Origin: a plasmid
Sequence record: NZ_LC532224.1
Reading direction: 5' to 3' (one strand)
Length of the DNA: 64,000 nucleotides
Made by a program: the position numbers. Below, one piece after another: positions 12,001 through 18,000 of this stretch. Numbering within the stretch: position 1 is the first letter of the stretch; every line of letters begins with the position of its first letter.

Positions 12001-15000
12001 TTTATTATTAACGGTTTGGTTTCTGAAAATTTATCCAATTTGCTCACCGAAGACTTTTAACTTATTTAACCCCCTTTATCGCCAAACTGTGATTTTCTAA
12101 TGTTAGTCTACAGTTCTAGGGCCCTTGCTCCCATGATGCGAATCCTGCCACCTAATAAAGATTAACGCCTCATTCCTGTATGCCGGTCTTACGACGCCAG
12201 TGCACGGACTATTTTTGGTCATCACAAGGACAGGCGGGAGATTTAATCAGGGCGTGGTGTTGCTGAGCAGCAGCTGCGGCACTGTAAGCCGAAGGCGGAA
12301 TTAACTCCTTTATCACCATCTGGGGACGTCATTATGGGTAGCCCTTTTAACTTGCTCAGGACCATTAAGCTAAAATTCCGGATAGCGATTGACGTAAGAT
12401 TTAGGCTAAGCAGGTAAAGTGATCCCCGCTCCCGGGGTGACAACTTTATACAAAAGGCCGAGCGGAAGATTGTCCTTAGGGAATATTTCTTTAACACAGC
12501 ACGGGCACTTACTCACGCTGCCGGATTTAACCCCCTTAATCGCCAAACTGGGGTTCTGTCCTCATGCTGGCCTTCAGTTCTGGGCGGGGTTGCTATCACT
12601 TGCTCCCTAATGCGAGATGTACCTGCTGATACAGATTAACGTCATATTCCTGCGTGCCGGTCTGCCGACACCAGTGCACGGGCTTTTTTCGGTCATCACA
12701 TTACCGGGCAGGAGATTTTATCAGGACGTGGTGTGACTGAGCAGCAGCTGGGGCACTGTCATCCGCTTGCAGATTTAACCCCCTTAATCGCCAAACTGGC
12801 GTTCAGTCCTGATAGTGTCCTTCCGTCCTGGGCAGGGTTGCTAACACTGGCTCCCTTAATACGAAATGCGCCTGCTGATAAAGATTAAAGTCACATCACT
12901 GCATACCGGTTTGCCGACTCCGGTGCATGGCCTTTTCCGATAATCACAAGGACGGACGGGTGATTATATCTGTGCATAGTATGTCTGAGCAGCATCAGAA
13001 GGCACTGTCAGCCACTGGCAGATTTAACCCCCTTAATCGCCAAACTGGCGTTCAGTCCTGATAGTGTCCTTCCGTCCTGGGCAGGGTTGCTAACACTTGC
13101 TCCCTTAATACGAAATGCGCCTGCTGATAAAGATTAAAGTCACATCACTGCATACCGGTCTGCCGACTCCGGTGCATGGCCTTTTCCGATAATCACAAGG
13201 ACGGACGGGTGATTATATCTGTGCATAGTATGTCTGAGCAGCATCAGAAGGCACTGTCAGCCGCTGGCAGATTTAACCCCCTTAATCGCCAAACTGGGAT
13301 CAGTCCTGATAGTGTCCTTCCGTCCTGGAGAGGGTTGCTAACACTTGTTCCCATGATACGAAATGCGCCAGCTGATACAGATTAACGTCTCATTGCCCAT
13401 GCCGGTCTGCCGACACCGGTGCATGGCCTTTTCCGATATTCGCAAGCACAGATGCTTGATTTTTTCAGGGTGTAATATACCTGAGCAGCATCTGAAGGCA
13501 CTTTCAGTCGCTGTCAGATTTAACACCCTTAATCGCCAATCTGGGATTTTATGATGTTAACCTCCAGTTCAAGACCCTTGCTCCCATGATGCGAACCTTG
13601 CCACCTGATAAAGATTTACGCCTCATTCCTGTATGCAGGTCTTACGACTCTAGTGCACGGACAATTTTCGGTCATAACAAGACCTGGCGGAAGATTTAAT
13701 CAGGCGTGGTGTGACTGAGCAGAAGCTGGGGCAATGTCAGCCGCTGGCAGAAAAAACCCTTATTCGCCATCTCAAACCGTCATTATGGGTAGTCCTTTTA
13801 ACTTTCTCAGGACCATTAAGCTTAAACTCCGTTTAGAGAATGACGTAAGATTTAGGCTAAGCAGGTTAAGTGATCCCTCTCCCGGGTTGAACACTATATT
13901 CATCGTACGAGCGGAAGATTGTCCTTCGGGAAATATTTCTTAAACACCGCTCGGGATCTTATTGCCACTGGCGGATTTAACCCCCTTAATCGCCATACTG
14001 GGGTTCTGTCCTGATGCTGGCCTTCAGTTCTGGGCTTGGGTTGCTATCGCTTGCTCCCATAATGCGAAATGTGCCTCCTGATACAGATTAACGTCATATT
14101 CCTGCGTGCCGGTCTGCCGACACCAGTGCACGGGCTTTTTTCGGTCATCACATTTCCGGGCAGGAGATTCTATCAGGGCGTGGTGTGACTGAGCAGCAAC
14201 TGGGGCACTGTCAGCAGCTTGCAGATTTAACACCCTTAATCGCCAAACTGGGATTCTGTTCTGATGTTGACCTTCCGTTCTGGGCGGGCTTTGGTTTACT
14301 AACACTTACTTCCATAATACGAAATGTGCTTGATGATGCAGATTAAATTCACATTACTGCATACCGGTCTGCCGACACCGGTGCATGGGCGATTTCCGAC
14401 GATCTCAAGAACATATGGGAGATTATATCAGGGAGAGTAGTATGCCTGAGCAGCATCTGAAGGCACTGTCAGCCGCTGTGAGATTTAACCCCCTTAATCG
14501 CCAAACTGGGGTTCTGTCCTCATGCTGGCCTTCAGTTCCGGGCTGGGTTGCTATCACTTGCTCACATAATGCGAAATGTACCTGCTGATACAGATTAACG
14601 TCATATTCCTATATGCCGGTCTGCCGACATCAGTGCTTGGGCTATTTTCGGTCAAAACAAGACCTGGCGAGAGATTTAATCAAGCGTGGTGTGACTGAGC
14701 AGCAGCTGGGGGCACTGTCATCCGCTTGCAAATTTAACCCCCTTAATCGCCAAACTTGGGTTCAGTCCTGATGTTGGCATTCCGTTCTGGGCGGCGTTGC
14801 TATCACTTGCTCCCATTATGCGAAAAGTGCCTGCTGATACAGATTAACGTCATATTCATGCATGCCGGTCTGCCGACACCAGTGCACGGGTTTTTTTCGG
14901 TCATTACAATACCGGGCAGGGGATTAAATCAGGGCGTGGTGTGACTGAACAGCAGCTGGGACACTGTCAGCCGCTGGCAGATTTAACCCCCTTAATCTCC

Positions 15001-18000
15001 ACACTGGGGTTGCCTCCTTAAGTTGGGTTTCATTTCGGGGTGAGGTTGCTAACTCTGCTCCCATAATTCGTAGTGTGCCTCCTCAAGAGATTAACACCTC
15101 ATATCTTTAGACTGGACTGACGACAACGGTTCACAGTTAGGAAACGTATATCAGCACACCGGTGAGATAGATTTTAGGGTCTAAGCAAGAAATAGGGTAG
15201 GCGTGAAGATTCATTAATGGAGCTCTTAACTTCAAAGCGTAGAGAAGGAGACAAGAATCGTGGTTTAAACAGGTTGTGCATTAGGTATGGACTAGAGAGT
15301 CTGAGCTCACATCTGCAAGTTAAGCTCACAAAAAATCATAAAAAAGTAAACAAACATTAGCTTAAGATTGAAACTAAGGATAGAATTGTACGCATAACAA
15401 GGAAATGGACGCATTATACGTAAAGTTTACATATATGCGTAAAAGTCGGTTTTCAGTGCAAAAAGGTCATAACCATGAATTTACTTGAAAAGATCGCCCT
15501 CGTTGGTCAGCGCATGAAAAGCGAGCAGATTTCTCTAAAGGAATCTCTGATGGCTTCATCAAGAGTATCTGTTTCTGATGATAGTGTTGATGGTGTTGAT
15601 AGACTGATCTATAACCACTGTTTGAATAAAAAAAATCTCTCTGATTTTTTTGGGAAGTCACGAGTAACGTTCAATAAAATACTTTCGGACTTAGAAGAAA
15701 AAGAACTTGTTGGTGCACCTATTTATCAAAACAAAAATCATCTTTACACCCGCTGGGATGTTCAAAAAATAATGGATGCCCTGGGTTATCCCAAGTACCG
15801 CGATCATTACTTTAGCAGAGCTATTGTTACTCAGAATCATAAAGGCGGTACAGGGAAAAGCACTACATCTGTAGCTTTAGCAGTAGCAGCTGCTTTAGAT
15901 CTACAACTCAATGCACGTGTATTAATGATCGAATGGGACCCACAAGGTTCGATTGGAAGCAGCATGATTCAAAGTGTCTCAGAAGATGATGTCTTCCTTA
16001 CAGCAATTGATGCAATCCTTGGAATTTATGAAGAAAATTCTGAGTATAAAAAATATTTAGATTCAGGATTCTCTGAAGAAGAAATCATCACTAATATGCC
16101 TTTTTCAACGCATCTGCCAAACTTGGACGTAATAACGGCTTTTCCGACAGATGCTCGTTTTAAAGATAAATACTGGCAATGTTCTAGAGAAGAACGTACG
16201 TCTTTGTTACTACGTTTCAAGGAAGTTATCTTACCGGTACTGAAGCAGAACTATGATTTGATTATTATAGACACTCCACCTGAAGATTCACCTTTGATCT
16301 GGGCTGCTGACGAAGCGGCCGATGGGATTCTTGTCGCAGTGTCACCACGTGAATATGATTACGCCTCTACTACAGACTTCATGCTTACAATAAGTGAAAG
16401 GTTTAAACAATCACCAAGTAAGGGCGACAATTTAAAATGGTTCAAAGTTCTTGCTGTCAATGTAGATGACAAAAGTCCATATGAAAGAATAGTTTTGGAT
16501 AAATTAATCAGAACTGTTCAGGACCTTTTGATGTCCGCTAACATAAAAAATTCTGAAGCATTTAAGGCAGCTGCTTCCAAAGGGCGTACAGTGCTTGATA
16601 TCAAAAAATCAGAGGAACTTTGTTCCGCAAAGCAGCTTGATGTCGCAGAAGAATCTGTATTACAGGTATATCAGCAATTTATAAATGAAATAAAAAGTTT
16701 TTCAGCTAAGCAAGGAGTTAACGCATGAGCGATGAGCAACATATCGGGAATGATAAATCTCGATATTTAAACGCACCAAAGCGGACAGAAGTCGGTCACC
16801 GTTCAGGTCTTGCGGGTTTGAAAACAGCACCTCGCATAAAAAAGTTATTCACTCTTCATAAGGGCCGGAGACTTGAAGCGGAACATGTGATTGTTCCAGC
16901 CCAGAGAGTGGAGAAGGAGACCTTAGTCCATCCAGCGAACCCACGAAATCAAGAAGCCCTTACAGATTATTCTGTTAGAGATATTCTTAAGCAGATTGAA
17001 GAAAGAGGGGTCGATACCGAAGGGATCGCTGTAAAAAGAGATGGGGTTTATTTATTAATAGAAGGAAGTCGCAGACGTTTCTGCTGTATAAAGGCAGAAA
17101 AGGATCTCCCCCTGTGGGTTCTTCCGGATGAACTAACCGAAGATGATATAAATTCAATTATATCCGCAGCACAAACATCTCGAAAATTTTCATATAGAGA
17201 AGTTGGGTTTCAATTTATCAAAAAAATGGAAGAAAAAGGATTTTCTACTAATGAAGAACTCGCAGCATATCTTGGGATTAGTCATGTATCGGTAGCCAAA
17301 AGAATCCAGGCGGCCCGTATTGACGAAACATTGATCTCTTTATTCCCGGATTATGAAGGAATCCCGAACTCCTATTATAGTCGCTTGTCTCGTTTACAGA
17401 AATATGTGCAAAAAAATCTATTTCCTTTAGATGAAGTAATAGATAATGTTAAAGAGGAAACAAAAGATTTAGACATTGGAGATCTCCAGGTTGCTCAAAA
17501 AGTTGTAATGGAAAAAATCACACAATCTGTGGAAAGTGTTTGTGAAAAAACTTATTCCACAAAATGGGAAACAAGTGATCTTATTACTTTTGATAACAAA
17601 GATAAGTATGCAAGAATCAGTAAAAACAATACTGGTAGAAAAATTCGCTTTGAATTCAATAGGATAAATGCGGGTTTTATTAAGGAACTAGAGGAGTTCA
17701 TAAAAGAAAAATTAAAAGTATCAGAATAAATATTGAACTGCATCTTTATGATGCAGTTCATATGATTTATATTTTTAATTTCTTGTTATATTAATATGGG
17801 GTGTGCGCAGGTTCAGACATATAAGGTCTTAGTTCTATATGAACAGAAGCGCCATTCCCATCATTTACTACGTTTAAAGGTGCTTTTCCCGGCAATGACA
17901 TAGTTGCAACGTCAGGTCCAGAAACAGCAAAATTATTTTCTGCTGAAGGCATTACTGTAAAAATCTTTATAGCAACATTTTCATGTCTAAATAATGAAAT

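What the first reader, a model, noticed from the sequence alone, without database searches (positions are those of the whole stretch)
12060..15110. A 3.1-kb heterogeneous tandem array (11 x ~249 bp plus 2 x ~222 bp) between trhC and parA
About 5% of the window is one non-coding direct-repeat array. The units share three highly conserved blocks: GATTTAACCCCCTTAATCGCCAAACTGG, CTGAGCAGCAGCTGGGGCACTGTCAGC and CCGGTCTGCCGACACCAGTGCACGG, the last a near-palindrome around ACCGGT. The spacers between blocks diverge, which suggests selection on the blocks themselves. Units 3 and 4 (12774-13271) are almost identical, so the array has expanded recently. A second unit type of ~222 bp occurs twice, after A units 1 and 6. 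The array sits directly upstream of a type Ia parAB module. It could be the parS centromere, an incompatibility or copy-control determinant, or a host nucleoid-protein loading site. Nothing in it codes; the 62-93-aa ORFs predicted inside follow the repeat phase and are artefacts.
Basis: seen in the sequence. Interest (0 to 1): 0.8.

Follow-up and report, generated by a model that had tools for sequence, protein, structure and literature searches.

The report
IncHI2 plasmid centromere (parS) repeat array
The 3-kb repeat array is most likely the centromere of a large IncHI2 resistance plasmid: eleven copies of a ~22-bp binding site for the plasmid's P1-type ParB partition protein, each carried in a 249-bp repeat whose remaining sequence shows no sign of function.

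Summary
There are 11 direct A units (247-258 bp) and two 223/224-bp B units between trhC and parA. The window is the IncHI2 backbone, and the intergenic region differs from prototype R478 at 3 of 3,838 bases.

The array is most likely the parS centromere of the adjacent type Ia ParAB. ParB is a P1-ParB homologue. Each unit head, ATTTAAC-CCCC-TTAA-TCGCCA, has the layout of P1 'small parS': box A, an inverted box A, and an overlapping box B. Box B is identical to P1's.

In about 60 related loci (ParB 47-100% identical) this ~22-bp core is the only shared element. Repeat periods differ (52-57, 66-67, 110, 121, 249 bp), and one plasmid has single sites. Core half-sites change together with the ParB recognition helix, and box B changes with the ParB C-terminal motif. 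A Providencia plasmid is a natural hybrid.

The unit body diverges between IncHI2 lineages as fast as unique flanking DNA. It shows no coding, promoter, RNA or IHF signal.

Unit number varies from 8 to 14 among the IncHI2 plasmids examined. ParB binding was not tested. This is a long-period variant of a known kind of element, of moderate interest.

The parts
12062..15140 (+). Whole array: 11 A units (U1-U11) plus 2 B units, with higher-order structure [U1 B U2 U3 U4 U5][U6 B U7 U8 U9 U10] U11
12063..12086 (+). Core site 1 (TATTTAACCCCCTTTATCGCCAAA), putative ParB site, 36.7 bits
12524..12547 (+). Core site 2 (GATTTAACCCCCTTAATCGCCAAA), 42.6 bits
12772..12795 (+). Core site 3, 42.6 bits
13021..13044 (+). 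Core site 4, 42.6 bits
13270..13293 (+). Core site 5, 42.6 bits
13517..13540 (+). Core site 6 (GATTTAACACCCTTAATCGCCAAT), 35.7 bits
13974..13997 (+). Core site 7, 38.9 bits
14224..14247 (+). Core site 8, 38.3 bits
14482..14505 (+). Core site 9, 42.6 bits
14731..14754 (+). Core site 10, 40.1 bits
14980..15003 (+). Core site 11 (box B reads TCTCCA), 36.4 bits, in the decayed terminal unit U11
12299..12522 (+). B unit 1: a strongly diverged A-type unit with a degenerate core (AATTAACTCCTTTATCACCA, PWM -15.2 bits)
13750..13972 (+). B unit 2: 80% identical to B1. Its degenerate core (AAAAAACCCTTATTCGCCA, PWM -0.6 bits) keeps TCGCCA but has lost box A
15332..15447 (+). parA-proximal control region. 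It is the only part of the intergenic region homologous to R27. It contains two 19-bp direct repeats (15383-15420) and an inverted copy (15434-15447) of a GTACGCATA motif, which is a putative ParA operator/promoter
   Evidence: compared with the P1 parOP sequence
15475..16728 (+). parA: a 417-aa Walker ATPase of type Ia size with an N-terminal extension
   Evidence: Pfam AAA_31/CbiA; PDB 7NPD E=5e-37 and P1 ParA 3EZ2 E=3e-12
16725..17729 (+). parB: a 334-aa P1-ParB homologue with an HTH and a C-terminal dimer/box-B domain, plus an invariant GSRRR arginine patch
   Evidence: Pfam PF08775 E=6.5e-12; PDB 1ZX4/2NTZ E=4e-16 over residues 150-329; alignment

Best explanation
The array is the cis-acting centromere (parS) of the IncHI2 Par1 (ParA/ParB) partition system. 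Each of the 11 A units begins with one ~22-bp ParB site, G-ATTTAAC-CCCC-TTAA-TCGCCA. This is built like the minimal 'small parS' of phage P1, with a forward A-type half-site, an inverted A-type half-site, and a B-type hexamer that overlaps the inverted half-site by one T.

Inferred mechanism: a ParB dimer reads the dyad A half-sites with its helix-turn-helix motifs and the TCGCCA box with its C-terminal dimer domain. The 11 co-oriented sites nucleate one large ParB-DNA partition complex. From general knowledge of ParB proteins, this probably involves CTP-dependent loading and spreading. That complex stimulates the nucleoid-bound type Ia ParA ATPase, which positions plasmid copies on either side of the division plane.

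Supplied in trans, the array should titrate ParB and cause partition incompatibility. Unequal crossing-over keeps changing the number and order of units.

Shown here: homology of ParB and ParA to the P1 proteins, the anatomy of the sites, family-wide conservation of the core, co-variation of the core with ParB, and variation in copy number. Inferred and not shown: actual binding, centromere activity and incompatibility.
For: (1) ParB belongs to the P1 ParB family. It matches Pfam PF08775 and aligns to the DNA-bound P1 ParB fragments 1ZX4/2NTZ at E=4e-16, covering the HTH and dimer domain. ParA is type Ia-like.

(2) The annotated P1 parS reads ATTTCAA-G-GTGAAAT/TCGCCA, that is A2, inverted A3, and B2 overlapping A3 by one T. 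Only A2-A3-B2 are needed for ParB binding, and box B sets specificity (PMC10999674). The IncHI2 core has the same layout and an identical box B.

(3) There are 11 sites of 35.7-42.6 bits, all co-oriented. No other position in the 64 kb scores above -1.7 bits.

(4) Phylogenetic footprint. R27/IncHI1, Citrobacter, Kluyvera, Pantoea, Serratia, IncHI3-like and IncHI5 plasmids and metagenome contigs all carry tandem arrays next to parAB. Their periods are 52-57, 66-67, 110 and 121 bp, and they share only this core. A Providencia plasmid has single sites upstream of parA and downstream of parB.

(5) Co-variation across about 60 loci, with no exceptions seen. A half-sites TTAA...TTAA occur with recognition helix ISHVSV-KR, and ACAA...TTGT (a change that preserves the dyad) occurs with I-x-x-ES-x-RKR. 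Box B TCGCCA occurs with GRK-x-[RK]-x-EFNR, and TCGCAG with GQKVSFEFKR. The Providencia hybrid combines the ES-RKR helix, the GRKVRFEFNR motif and the site AACAACCCCCTTGTTCGCCA. This separates the two readouts as the P1 structural model predicts.

(6) Core columns are 6-fold less variable than the rest of the unit. Between lineages the core differs by about 2.8%, against about 6% for the body.

Against: There is no experimental binding or stability data for this array. The location (upstream of parA), the multiplicity (11 sites), the lack of an IHF site and the wider half-site spacing (4-5 C residues against 1 bp in P1) all differ from canonical P1 parS. The inverted A half-site is imperfect in IncHI2, with a 4-bp TTAA dyad. 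The co-variation rests on only three or four independent ParB lineages, so it is confounded by phylogeny. The 249-bp period and the stable retention of two B units in about 1,120 records are not explained by ParB binding alone.
Confidence: 0.85

Rival explanations
1. Composite element: the cores are parS sites, but the ~225-bp unit body also has a function. It might carry auxiliary ParB A-box contacts (GATTAAC near position 111 and GATT near position 191 of the unit). It might carry sites for another plasmid or host protein at TCTGCCGA / CTGAGCAGCA. Or it might act as a spacer that sets the geometry of the partition complex.
For: A few short non-core runs are conserved among 19 distinct paralogous units (GGTTGCTA, GCTGATAcAGATTAAC, TCTGCCGA, CTGAGCAGCA). 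Residual clustering of conservation without the core gives p=0.027 on one of two statistics. GATTAAC and GATT persist in the alignment of U11 and the B units. The array is GC-rich relative to its flanks. The two B units are stably retained.
Against: Orthologous units in the two IncHI2 lineages diverge by 3.5-6.5%, as fast as the unique flanks (3.5-4.5%), and blocks 2 and 3 are not spared. The longest-run statistic without the core is not significant (p=0.15). Similarity between the A and B bodies is at chance level (z<=0.9). No relative with 47-74% identical ParB has these blocks.
Confidence: 0.1
2. Replication-control or incompatibility iteron array that titrates a Rep initiator.
For: It is a tandem direct-repeat array on a low-copy plasmid. 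Such arrays (for example P1 incA, annotated) can control copy number.
Against: The RepHI2A iterons (CATTCATnnAAATGCnTTTG, 1014-1600) are unrelated to the core. No core-like site lies near the rep gene. The same core occurs on plasmids with different replicons (IncHI1, and non-IncHI MPF_T plasmids) and changes with ParB, not with the replicon. The second IncHI2 replicon lies outside the window and was not examined.
Confidence: 0.02
3. Functionless satellite-like tandem repeat, or an array of small RNA or promoter units.
For: The unit body evolves at a neutral-like rate and unit number varies freely. An IS element has inserted in the trhC-parA gap of one plasmid (H1).
Against: The core is conserved from 47% to 100% ParB identity, always adjacent to parAB, always co-oriented, and co-varying with ParB. 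Promoter-like sites are fewer than expected (3 against 6.6). There is no Rfam match. Predicted RNA folding is weaker than in shuffles (z=+1.6 and +1.1).
Confidence: 0.03

Closest known systems
Phage/plasmid P1 parS with ParA-ParB (P1par family, type Ia)
   Same: ParB has the same two DNA-reading modules, an HTH and a C-terminal dimer domain (PF08775; 1ZX4/2NTZ). The site is built from an A-type half-site, an inverted A-type half-site and a TCGCCA box B overlapping by one T, as in the P1 A2-A3-B2 'small parS'. ParA is long and of the type Ia kind, and a candidate operator with a TACGCAT motif lies upstream of parA.
   Different: ParB is only about 28% identical to P1 ParB. The sites lie upstream of parA, not downstream of parB. 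There are 11 copies instead of one. There is no IHF site and no second arm. The A half-sites read ATTTAAC/TTAAT instead of ATTTCAC and are separated by 4-5 C residues instead of 1 bp.
F plasmid sopC (12 tandem 43-bp repeats bound by SopB); details from general knowledge, not tested here
   Same: It is a centromere made of a tandem array of co-oriented repeats. Each repeat carries one short dyad binding site for a type Ia ParB-class protein. It is a source of partition incompatibility.
   Different: sopC lies downstream of sopB, its unit is 43 bp, and SopB has no box-B-type second readout. Here the unit is 249 bp with about 90% non-site DNA, and the ParB is of the P1 type.
R27 (IncHI1) Par1 module and its trhC-parA repeat arrays
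   Same: The locus is orthologous and syntenic (trhC, then the array, then parA and parB). ParB is about 71-72% identical. The core ATTTAACCCCCTTAATCGCCA is identical. [quoted passage not shown]
   Different: R27 has about 27 units of 52-54 bp in two sub-arrays separated by about 800 bp. Apart from the core and the parA promoter region there is no detectable homology.
IncHI3-like and IncHI5 parAB arrays (called 'parABC' in PMC6339943)
   Same: They are the same ParAB family (ParB 47-49% identical), with large arrays upstream of parA and the same dyad-plus-box layout.
   Different: The core is AAACAACCCC(C/G)TTGTTCGCAG, the period is 66-67 bp, and there are dozens of copies (TRF: about 29 upstream plus 2.4 downstream of parB in the IncHI3-like plasmid; about 42 plus 14 in IncHI5). 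A second sub-array lies downstream of parB.

Membership tests
P1par-family ParABS (type Ia partition system) | ParB with an HTH and the P1-type C-terminal dimer/box-B-binding domain | tested here: met
   Pfam PF08775 at E=6.5e-12, above the gathering score. 1ZX4/2NTZ at E=4e-16 over residues 150-329. The K-D of the F-x-x-K-D-x-[YF]-A-R motif is invariant.
P1par-family ParABS (type Ia partition system) | Long Walker-type ParA with an N-terminal regulatory domain, autoregulating from an operator upstream of parA | tested here: inconclusive
   ParA is 417 aa. Homology to P1 ParA 3EZ2 starts at residue 63, and to V. cholerae ParA2 7NPD gives E=5e-37. Candidate operator repeats lie at 15383-15447. 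Autoregulation cannot be tested here.
P1par-family ParABS (type Ia partition system) | parS composed of heptamer box A and hexamer box B motifs (minimal site A2-A3-B2) | tested here: met
   The core ATTTAAC-CCCC-TTAAT/CGCCA matches the layout of P1 ATTTCAA-G-GTGAAAT/CGCCA. Box B TCGCCA is identical. The match is at sequence level only.
P1par-family ParABS (type Ia partition system) | Single parS located immediately downstream of parB | tested here: not met
   All 11 sites lie 470-3,400 bp upstream of parA. Only 61 bp separate parB from the next, convergent gene.
P1par-family ParABS (type Ia partition system) | IHF site between two arms of parS | tested here: not met
   There is no WATCAANNNNTTR match in 11.6-15.5 kb.
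P1par-family ParABS (type Ia partition system) | ParB binds parS, and the site confers ParAB-dependent stability and incompatibility | not testable with these tools
   This needs EMSA or ChIP, plus stability and incompatibility assays.
Tandem-repeat centromeres (sopC-like arrays) | Co-oriented tandem units, each with one binding site for the cognate ParB, adjacent to the par operon | tested here: met
   There is one core per A unit, all on the + strand and adjacent to parAB. The same holds in about 60 related loci with other periods.
Rep iteron / copy-control arrays | Repeats match the iterons of the plasmid's initiator | tested here: not met
   RepHI2A iterons at 1014-1600 are unrelated to the core. 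No core lies outside the array.

The most novel reading that the evidence does not exclude
The 249-bp IncHI2 unit is not one site plus filler. It is an integrated 'large parS' module in which the body provides auxiliary A-box-like contacts (GATTAAC at about +110, GATT at about +190) or a second protein's sites (TCTGCCGA / CTGAGCAGCA). Each unit would then wrap or loop into a defined ParB nucleoprotein particle without IHF, making it a repeated higher-order centromere unit with no described counterpart among plasmid partition sites.
Probability: 0.08. Interest if true: 0.7.

Novelty: new variant of a known kind. Interest (0 to 1): 0.35.

Why it matters
IncHI2 plasmids (R478-like) are major carriers of mcr-1, mcr-9, carbapenemase and ESBL genes. 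About 1,120 records in the plasmid collection contain this array.

Defining the 22-bp site has three practical uses. It gives a concrete target for incompatibility-based curing constructs. It gives a rule for predicting partition incompatibility among IncHI subgroups: IncHI1 and IncHI2 share an identical core, while IncHI3 and IncHI5 differ. It also flags a repeat region whose unit number (8-14) varies and can be mis-assembled.

The family is also a natural experiment in the modular DNA readout of P1-type ParB, where the HTH reads box A and the C-terminal domain reads box B, and it includes a natural hybrid. It shows that the same core has been built into tandem arrays with at least five different repeat periods.

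Tried and rejected
- **R27 'incC' stability sequence (PMC4853401).** It belongs to the RepFIA-like replicon and is bound by the E protein, so it is a different locus.
- **Unit body made of decayed 52-56-bp units.** There is no significant similarity to the R27, L008 or L011 units (p>=0.38) and no internal periodicity (p=0.06). 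This holds even though L038's 110-bp unit shows that such decay does happen in a relative.
- **B unit derived from the array's right or left flank.** The similarity is at chance level (z about 0.9).
- **Homology between the unit body and R27's trhC-parA gap.** There is none beyond the cores and the parA promoter region.
- **Promoter or terminator arrays.** 3 promoter-like sites were found against 6.6 expected, and 3 terminator-like sites against 3.8.
- **Known RNA families.** No Rfam match at E<=1.
- **Structured RNA or cruciform.** z=+1.6 and +1.1.
- **Coding repeats.** Open runs are shorter than in shuffles.
- **IHF sites.** None in the array.
- **Iteron identity.** Rejected.
- **Auxiliary A box conserved between the A and B bodies.** Not significant (z<=0.9).
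- **Literature.** The primary papers could not be read. Look-ups of Lawley & Taylor 2003, Sherburne 2000 and Dabrazhynetskaya 2005 and 2009 failed. Gilmour 2004 and Liang 2017 were not returned by any search and are cited without a PMC id. Earlier mention of these repeats cannot therefore be excluded. From memory, the R27 work noted direct repeats near parA. PMC6339943 writes 'parABC' for IncHI5, which implies a centromere has been annotated there.

Full report
**1. Observation**

The array is real and sits at the stated coordinates.
- Tandem Repeats Finder gives two 249-bp-period arrays, at 12516-13544 and 13974-15095.
- Anchoring on the unit head gives 11 A units. They start at 12062, 12523, 12771, 13020, 13269, 13516, 13973, 14223, 14481, 14730 and 14979, and are 247-258 bp long.
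- Two B inserts (12299-12522 and 13750-13972; 224 and 223 bp; 80% identical to each other) follow U1 and U6.
- U3 and U4 are 99% identical.
- U1 pairs with U6 (84%) and U2 with U7 (94%), so the array is itself a duplicated higher-order block.
- U11 is a decayed A unit (z=24 against the A body).
- B is a strongly diverged A unit (global z=6.8 and 3.8) whose core no longer scores (-15.2 and -0.6 bits).
- The region is non-coding. The longest open run is 93 codons, against 128 +/- 26 in shuffles.
- It has fewer promoter-like sites than chance (3 against 6.6).
- It has no Rfam match.
- It has no excess RNA structure (z=+1.6 and +1.1).

**2. Source**

The window is an IncHI2 plasmid backbone.
- It is 100% identical to pMyNCGM586 at the same coordinates.
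- Its trhC-parA intergenic region differs from the prototype R478 at 3 of 3,838 positions.
- 1,124 plasmid records contain the array, 416 of them at 99% identity or more. Assembly collapse is therefore excluded.
- Among the IncHI2 plasmids examined, unit number ranges from 8 to 14 and unit order differs. pT5282-mphA has 9 units. pR18.0877 has 13-14, including a triplicated U2-U8-U9 block. pMCR1_025943 has 10-11 in a different order.
- The array therefore expands, contracts and shuffles by unequal recombination.

**3. The proteins next door**

ParB:
- ParB (16725-17729, 334 aa) matches Pfam PF08775, the P1-ParB C-terminal domain.
- It aligns to the DNA-bound P1 ParB crystal fragments 1ZX4 and 2NTZ at E=4e-16 over residues 150-329.

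ParA:
- ParA (15475-16728, 417 aa) matches long type Ia ParAs. These include V. cholerae ParA2 (7NPD, E=5e-37) and P1/P7 ParA (3EZ2 and 3EZ9).

Context:
- Only 61 bp separate parB from the next, convergent gene. That leaves no room for a P1-style parS downstream.

**4. The site**

- The annotated P1 genome gives box A as ATTTCAC/ATTTCAA and box B as TCGCCA.
- The right half of P1 parS reads ATTTCAA-G-GTGAAAT/TCGCCA, that is A2, inverted A3, and B2 sharing one T with A3.
- Every IncHI2 unit begins G-ATTTAAC-CCCC-TTAAT/CGCCA. This has the same order and overlap and an identical box B.
- A PWM of this head scores 35.7-42.6 bits at exactly 11 positions, all on the + strand and all in the array. 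The best score elsewhere in the 64 kb is -1.7 bits.

**5. Comparative test**

I collected about 60 loci encoding ParB relatives from plasmids, genomes and metagenomes. Those with ParB 47-100% identical carry the same ~22-bp core next to parAB wherever enough flanking DNA was available, but in very different packaging.

| Group | ParB identity to window | Arrangement |
|---|---|---|
| R27 / IncHI1 | about 72% | 52-54-bp units in two sub-arrays, about 27 units |
| Pantoea, Pseudocitrobacter | about 74% | 54-bp units |
| Citrobacter, Kluyvera, Serratia and metagenome contigs | 70-72% | 55-57-bp units, 6-8 copies |
| Metagenome contig L038 | 61% | 110-bp unit: one intact core plus one decayed core (GAATTACCCCCTTAATCGTCAG) |
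| IncHI3-like and IncHI5 plasmids | 47-49% | 66-67-bp units (some 121 bp), dozens of copies, with a second sub-array downstream of parB |
| Providencia plasmid pPROV175-PER | about 54-56% | single sites, one 140 bp upstream of parA and one about 170 bp downstream of parB |

Apart from the core, only the parA promoter region (15332-15440) is homologous between IncHI2 and R27.

**6. Co-variation**

Across these loci the pattern held without exception in the sample.
- **A half-sites and the HTH.** Where the A half-sites read TTAA...TTAA, the ParB recognition helix reads ISHVSV-KR. Where they read ACAA...TTGT, it reads I-x-x-ES-x-RKR. The second form differs by two compensatory changes that keep the dyad.
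- **Box B and the C-terminal motif.** Box B TCGCCA goes with the C-terminal motif GRK-x-[RK]-x-EFNR. TCGCAG goes with GQKVSFEFKR.
- **Natural hybrid.** The Providencia protein has the ES-RKR helix and the GRKVRFEFNR C-terminus. Its sites are the matching hybrid, AACAACCCCCTTGTTCGCCA.

This is what the P1 structural model predicts, with the HTH reading box A and the C-terminal dimer domain reading box B. The number of independent lineages is small (three or four), so this is supportive rather than conclusive.

**7. The rest of the unit**

*Paralogous comparison.* Across 19 distinct regular units from four IncHI2 sources, core columns carry 0.43 minority states per column and the rest carry 2.6. 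Conservation is significantly clustered (p=0.005 and 0.0008). With the core removed, the signal is weak (p=0.15 and 0.027).

*Orthologous comparison.* A comparison free of concerted evolution used orthologous positions in the R478-type and pMCR1_025943-type lineages.

| Region | Divergence |
|---|---|
| trhC | 0.71% |
| parA | 0.93% |
| Unique flanks | 3.5% and 4.5% |
| Array units | 3.5-6.5% |
| Block 3 | about 7% |
| Block 2 | about 5% |
| Core | about 2.8% |

*Other tests of the body.*
- It is not detectably related to the short units of relatives (p>=0.38).
- It has no internal periodicity (p=0.06).
- It has no IHF consensus.
- Its origin is unexplained.
- Short runs (GGTTGCTA, GCTGATAcAGATTAAC, TCTGCCGA, CTGAGCAGCA) and A-box-like GATTAAC/GATT elements persist in alignments. 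They do not reach significance.

**8. Alternatives**

- An iteron or copy-control role is unlikely. RepHI2A (1-876) has unrelated ~20-bp iterons at 1014-1600. The core follows ParB across different replicons.
- Junk or RNA-gene readings are contradicted by the family-wide conservation of the core and by the negative promoter, Rfam and folding results.
- A composite function of the unit body remains possible at low probability.

**9. Mechanism (inferred)**

- ParB dimers bind the 11 co-oriented small-parS-like cores.
- Together these nucleate one partition complex. From general knowledge of ParB proteins, and given the invariant GSRRR patch seen, this probably involves CTP-dependent loading and spreading.
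- The complex is positioned by the type Ia ParA on the nucleoid.
- A candidate ParA operator lies at 15383-15447. It consists of two 19-bp direct repeats and an inverted copy of a GTACGCATA motif, which resembles the P1 par operator sequence.
- The orthologous R27 Par1 module is reported as that plasmid's major stability determinant (cited in PMC4489591).
- R27 parA and parB are constitutively expressed (PMC7366339).

**10. Novelty**

Tandem-repeat centromeres and P1-type box A/box B sites are both well known, and the R27 orthologue has been studied genetically. What is unusual here:
- a P1-type ParB served by an array of minimal sites upstream of parA;
- a 249-bp period in which about 90% of each unit is apparently dispensable;
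- the same core built into arrays with at least five different periods across the family.

I found no description of the IncHI2 array in the searchable literature (for example). The primary R27 and R478 papers could not be read, so prior mention cannot be excluded. I rate it a new variant of a known kind, of moderate interest (0.35).

Noticed in passing
window 11822-11831 and 15388-15397; 15383-15447: GTACGCATWA occurs exactly twice in the 64 kb, once on each flank of the array. The parA-proximal copy is part of two 19-bp direct repeats plus an inverted copy, in the only intergenic stretch homologous to R27. It resembles the P1 par operator (CTACGCATAC...TATGCAG), so it is probably the ParA operator. 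The left-flank copy is unexplained.
   Followed up: partly
window 11637-12061: The left flank is AT-rich (33-35% GC). It has three copies of TGTAyGCmTTAAGTAAACAAA (11698, 11821, 11896) and a perfect 10-bp inverted repeat GTAAACAAAA/TTTTGTTTAC (11833/11893). The function is unknown.
   Followed up: no
window 1-876 and 1014-1600: The RepB-family initiator gene (RepHI2A) is followed by about 20-bp iteron-like repeats CATTCATnnAAATGCnTTTG in both orientations.
   Followed up: partly
window 20745-22522: This is a second partition module (Par2): parM at 20835-21872 and a downstream 212-aa ORF at 21884-22522. Inverted repeats upstream (20745-20852) could be its parC centromere.
   Followed up: no
L006 10194-10349; L007 10068-11030: IncHI3-like and IncHI5 plasmids carry a second sub-array of the same core downstream of parB, in addition to the large upstream array. 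IncHI1 and IncHI2 do not.
   Followed up: partly
L005 7592-7613 and 10170-10190 (Providencia pPROV175-PER): This is a natural 'hybrid-specificity' member. It has single sites AAAACAACCCCCTTGTTCGCCA, which combine the IncHI3/5-type A half-sites with the IncHI1/2-type box B. Its ParB has the matching hybrid recognition helix and C-terminal motif.
   Followed up: yes
L038 2750-3441: The 110-bp unit holds one intact and one decayed core (GAATTACCCCCTTAATCGTCAG). This is a visible intermediate in the thinning of core density within higher-order units.
   Followed up: partly
L063 5938-5985: A distant relative (ParB 37% identical) has AAAACAATGGGGGTTGTCACAGC repeated 2.1 times around the 3' end of parB. 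The dyad ACAA...TTGT is kept, but the spacer is G-rich instead of C-rich and the box differs.
   Followed up: no
NZ_OK649970.1 (hit H1): An IS3-family transposase is annotated inside the trhC-parA gap of this otherwise identical plasmid (5,133 bp against 3,901 bp). The region therefore tolerates an insertion.
   Followed up: no
L010 (CP169086.1, titled E. hormaechei chromosome): An IncHI2 backbone with an 8-unit array lies in a record labelled as a chromosome. It may be an integrated plasmid or a labelling or assembly issue.
   Followed up: no
L016 (R27) between the two sub-arrays, about 800 bp: R27's array is split by about 800 bp of non-repeat sequence, which I did not characterise. In the R27-like pSE81-1706, hypothetical ORFs are annotated across the repeats.
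   Followed up: no
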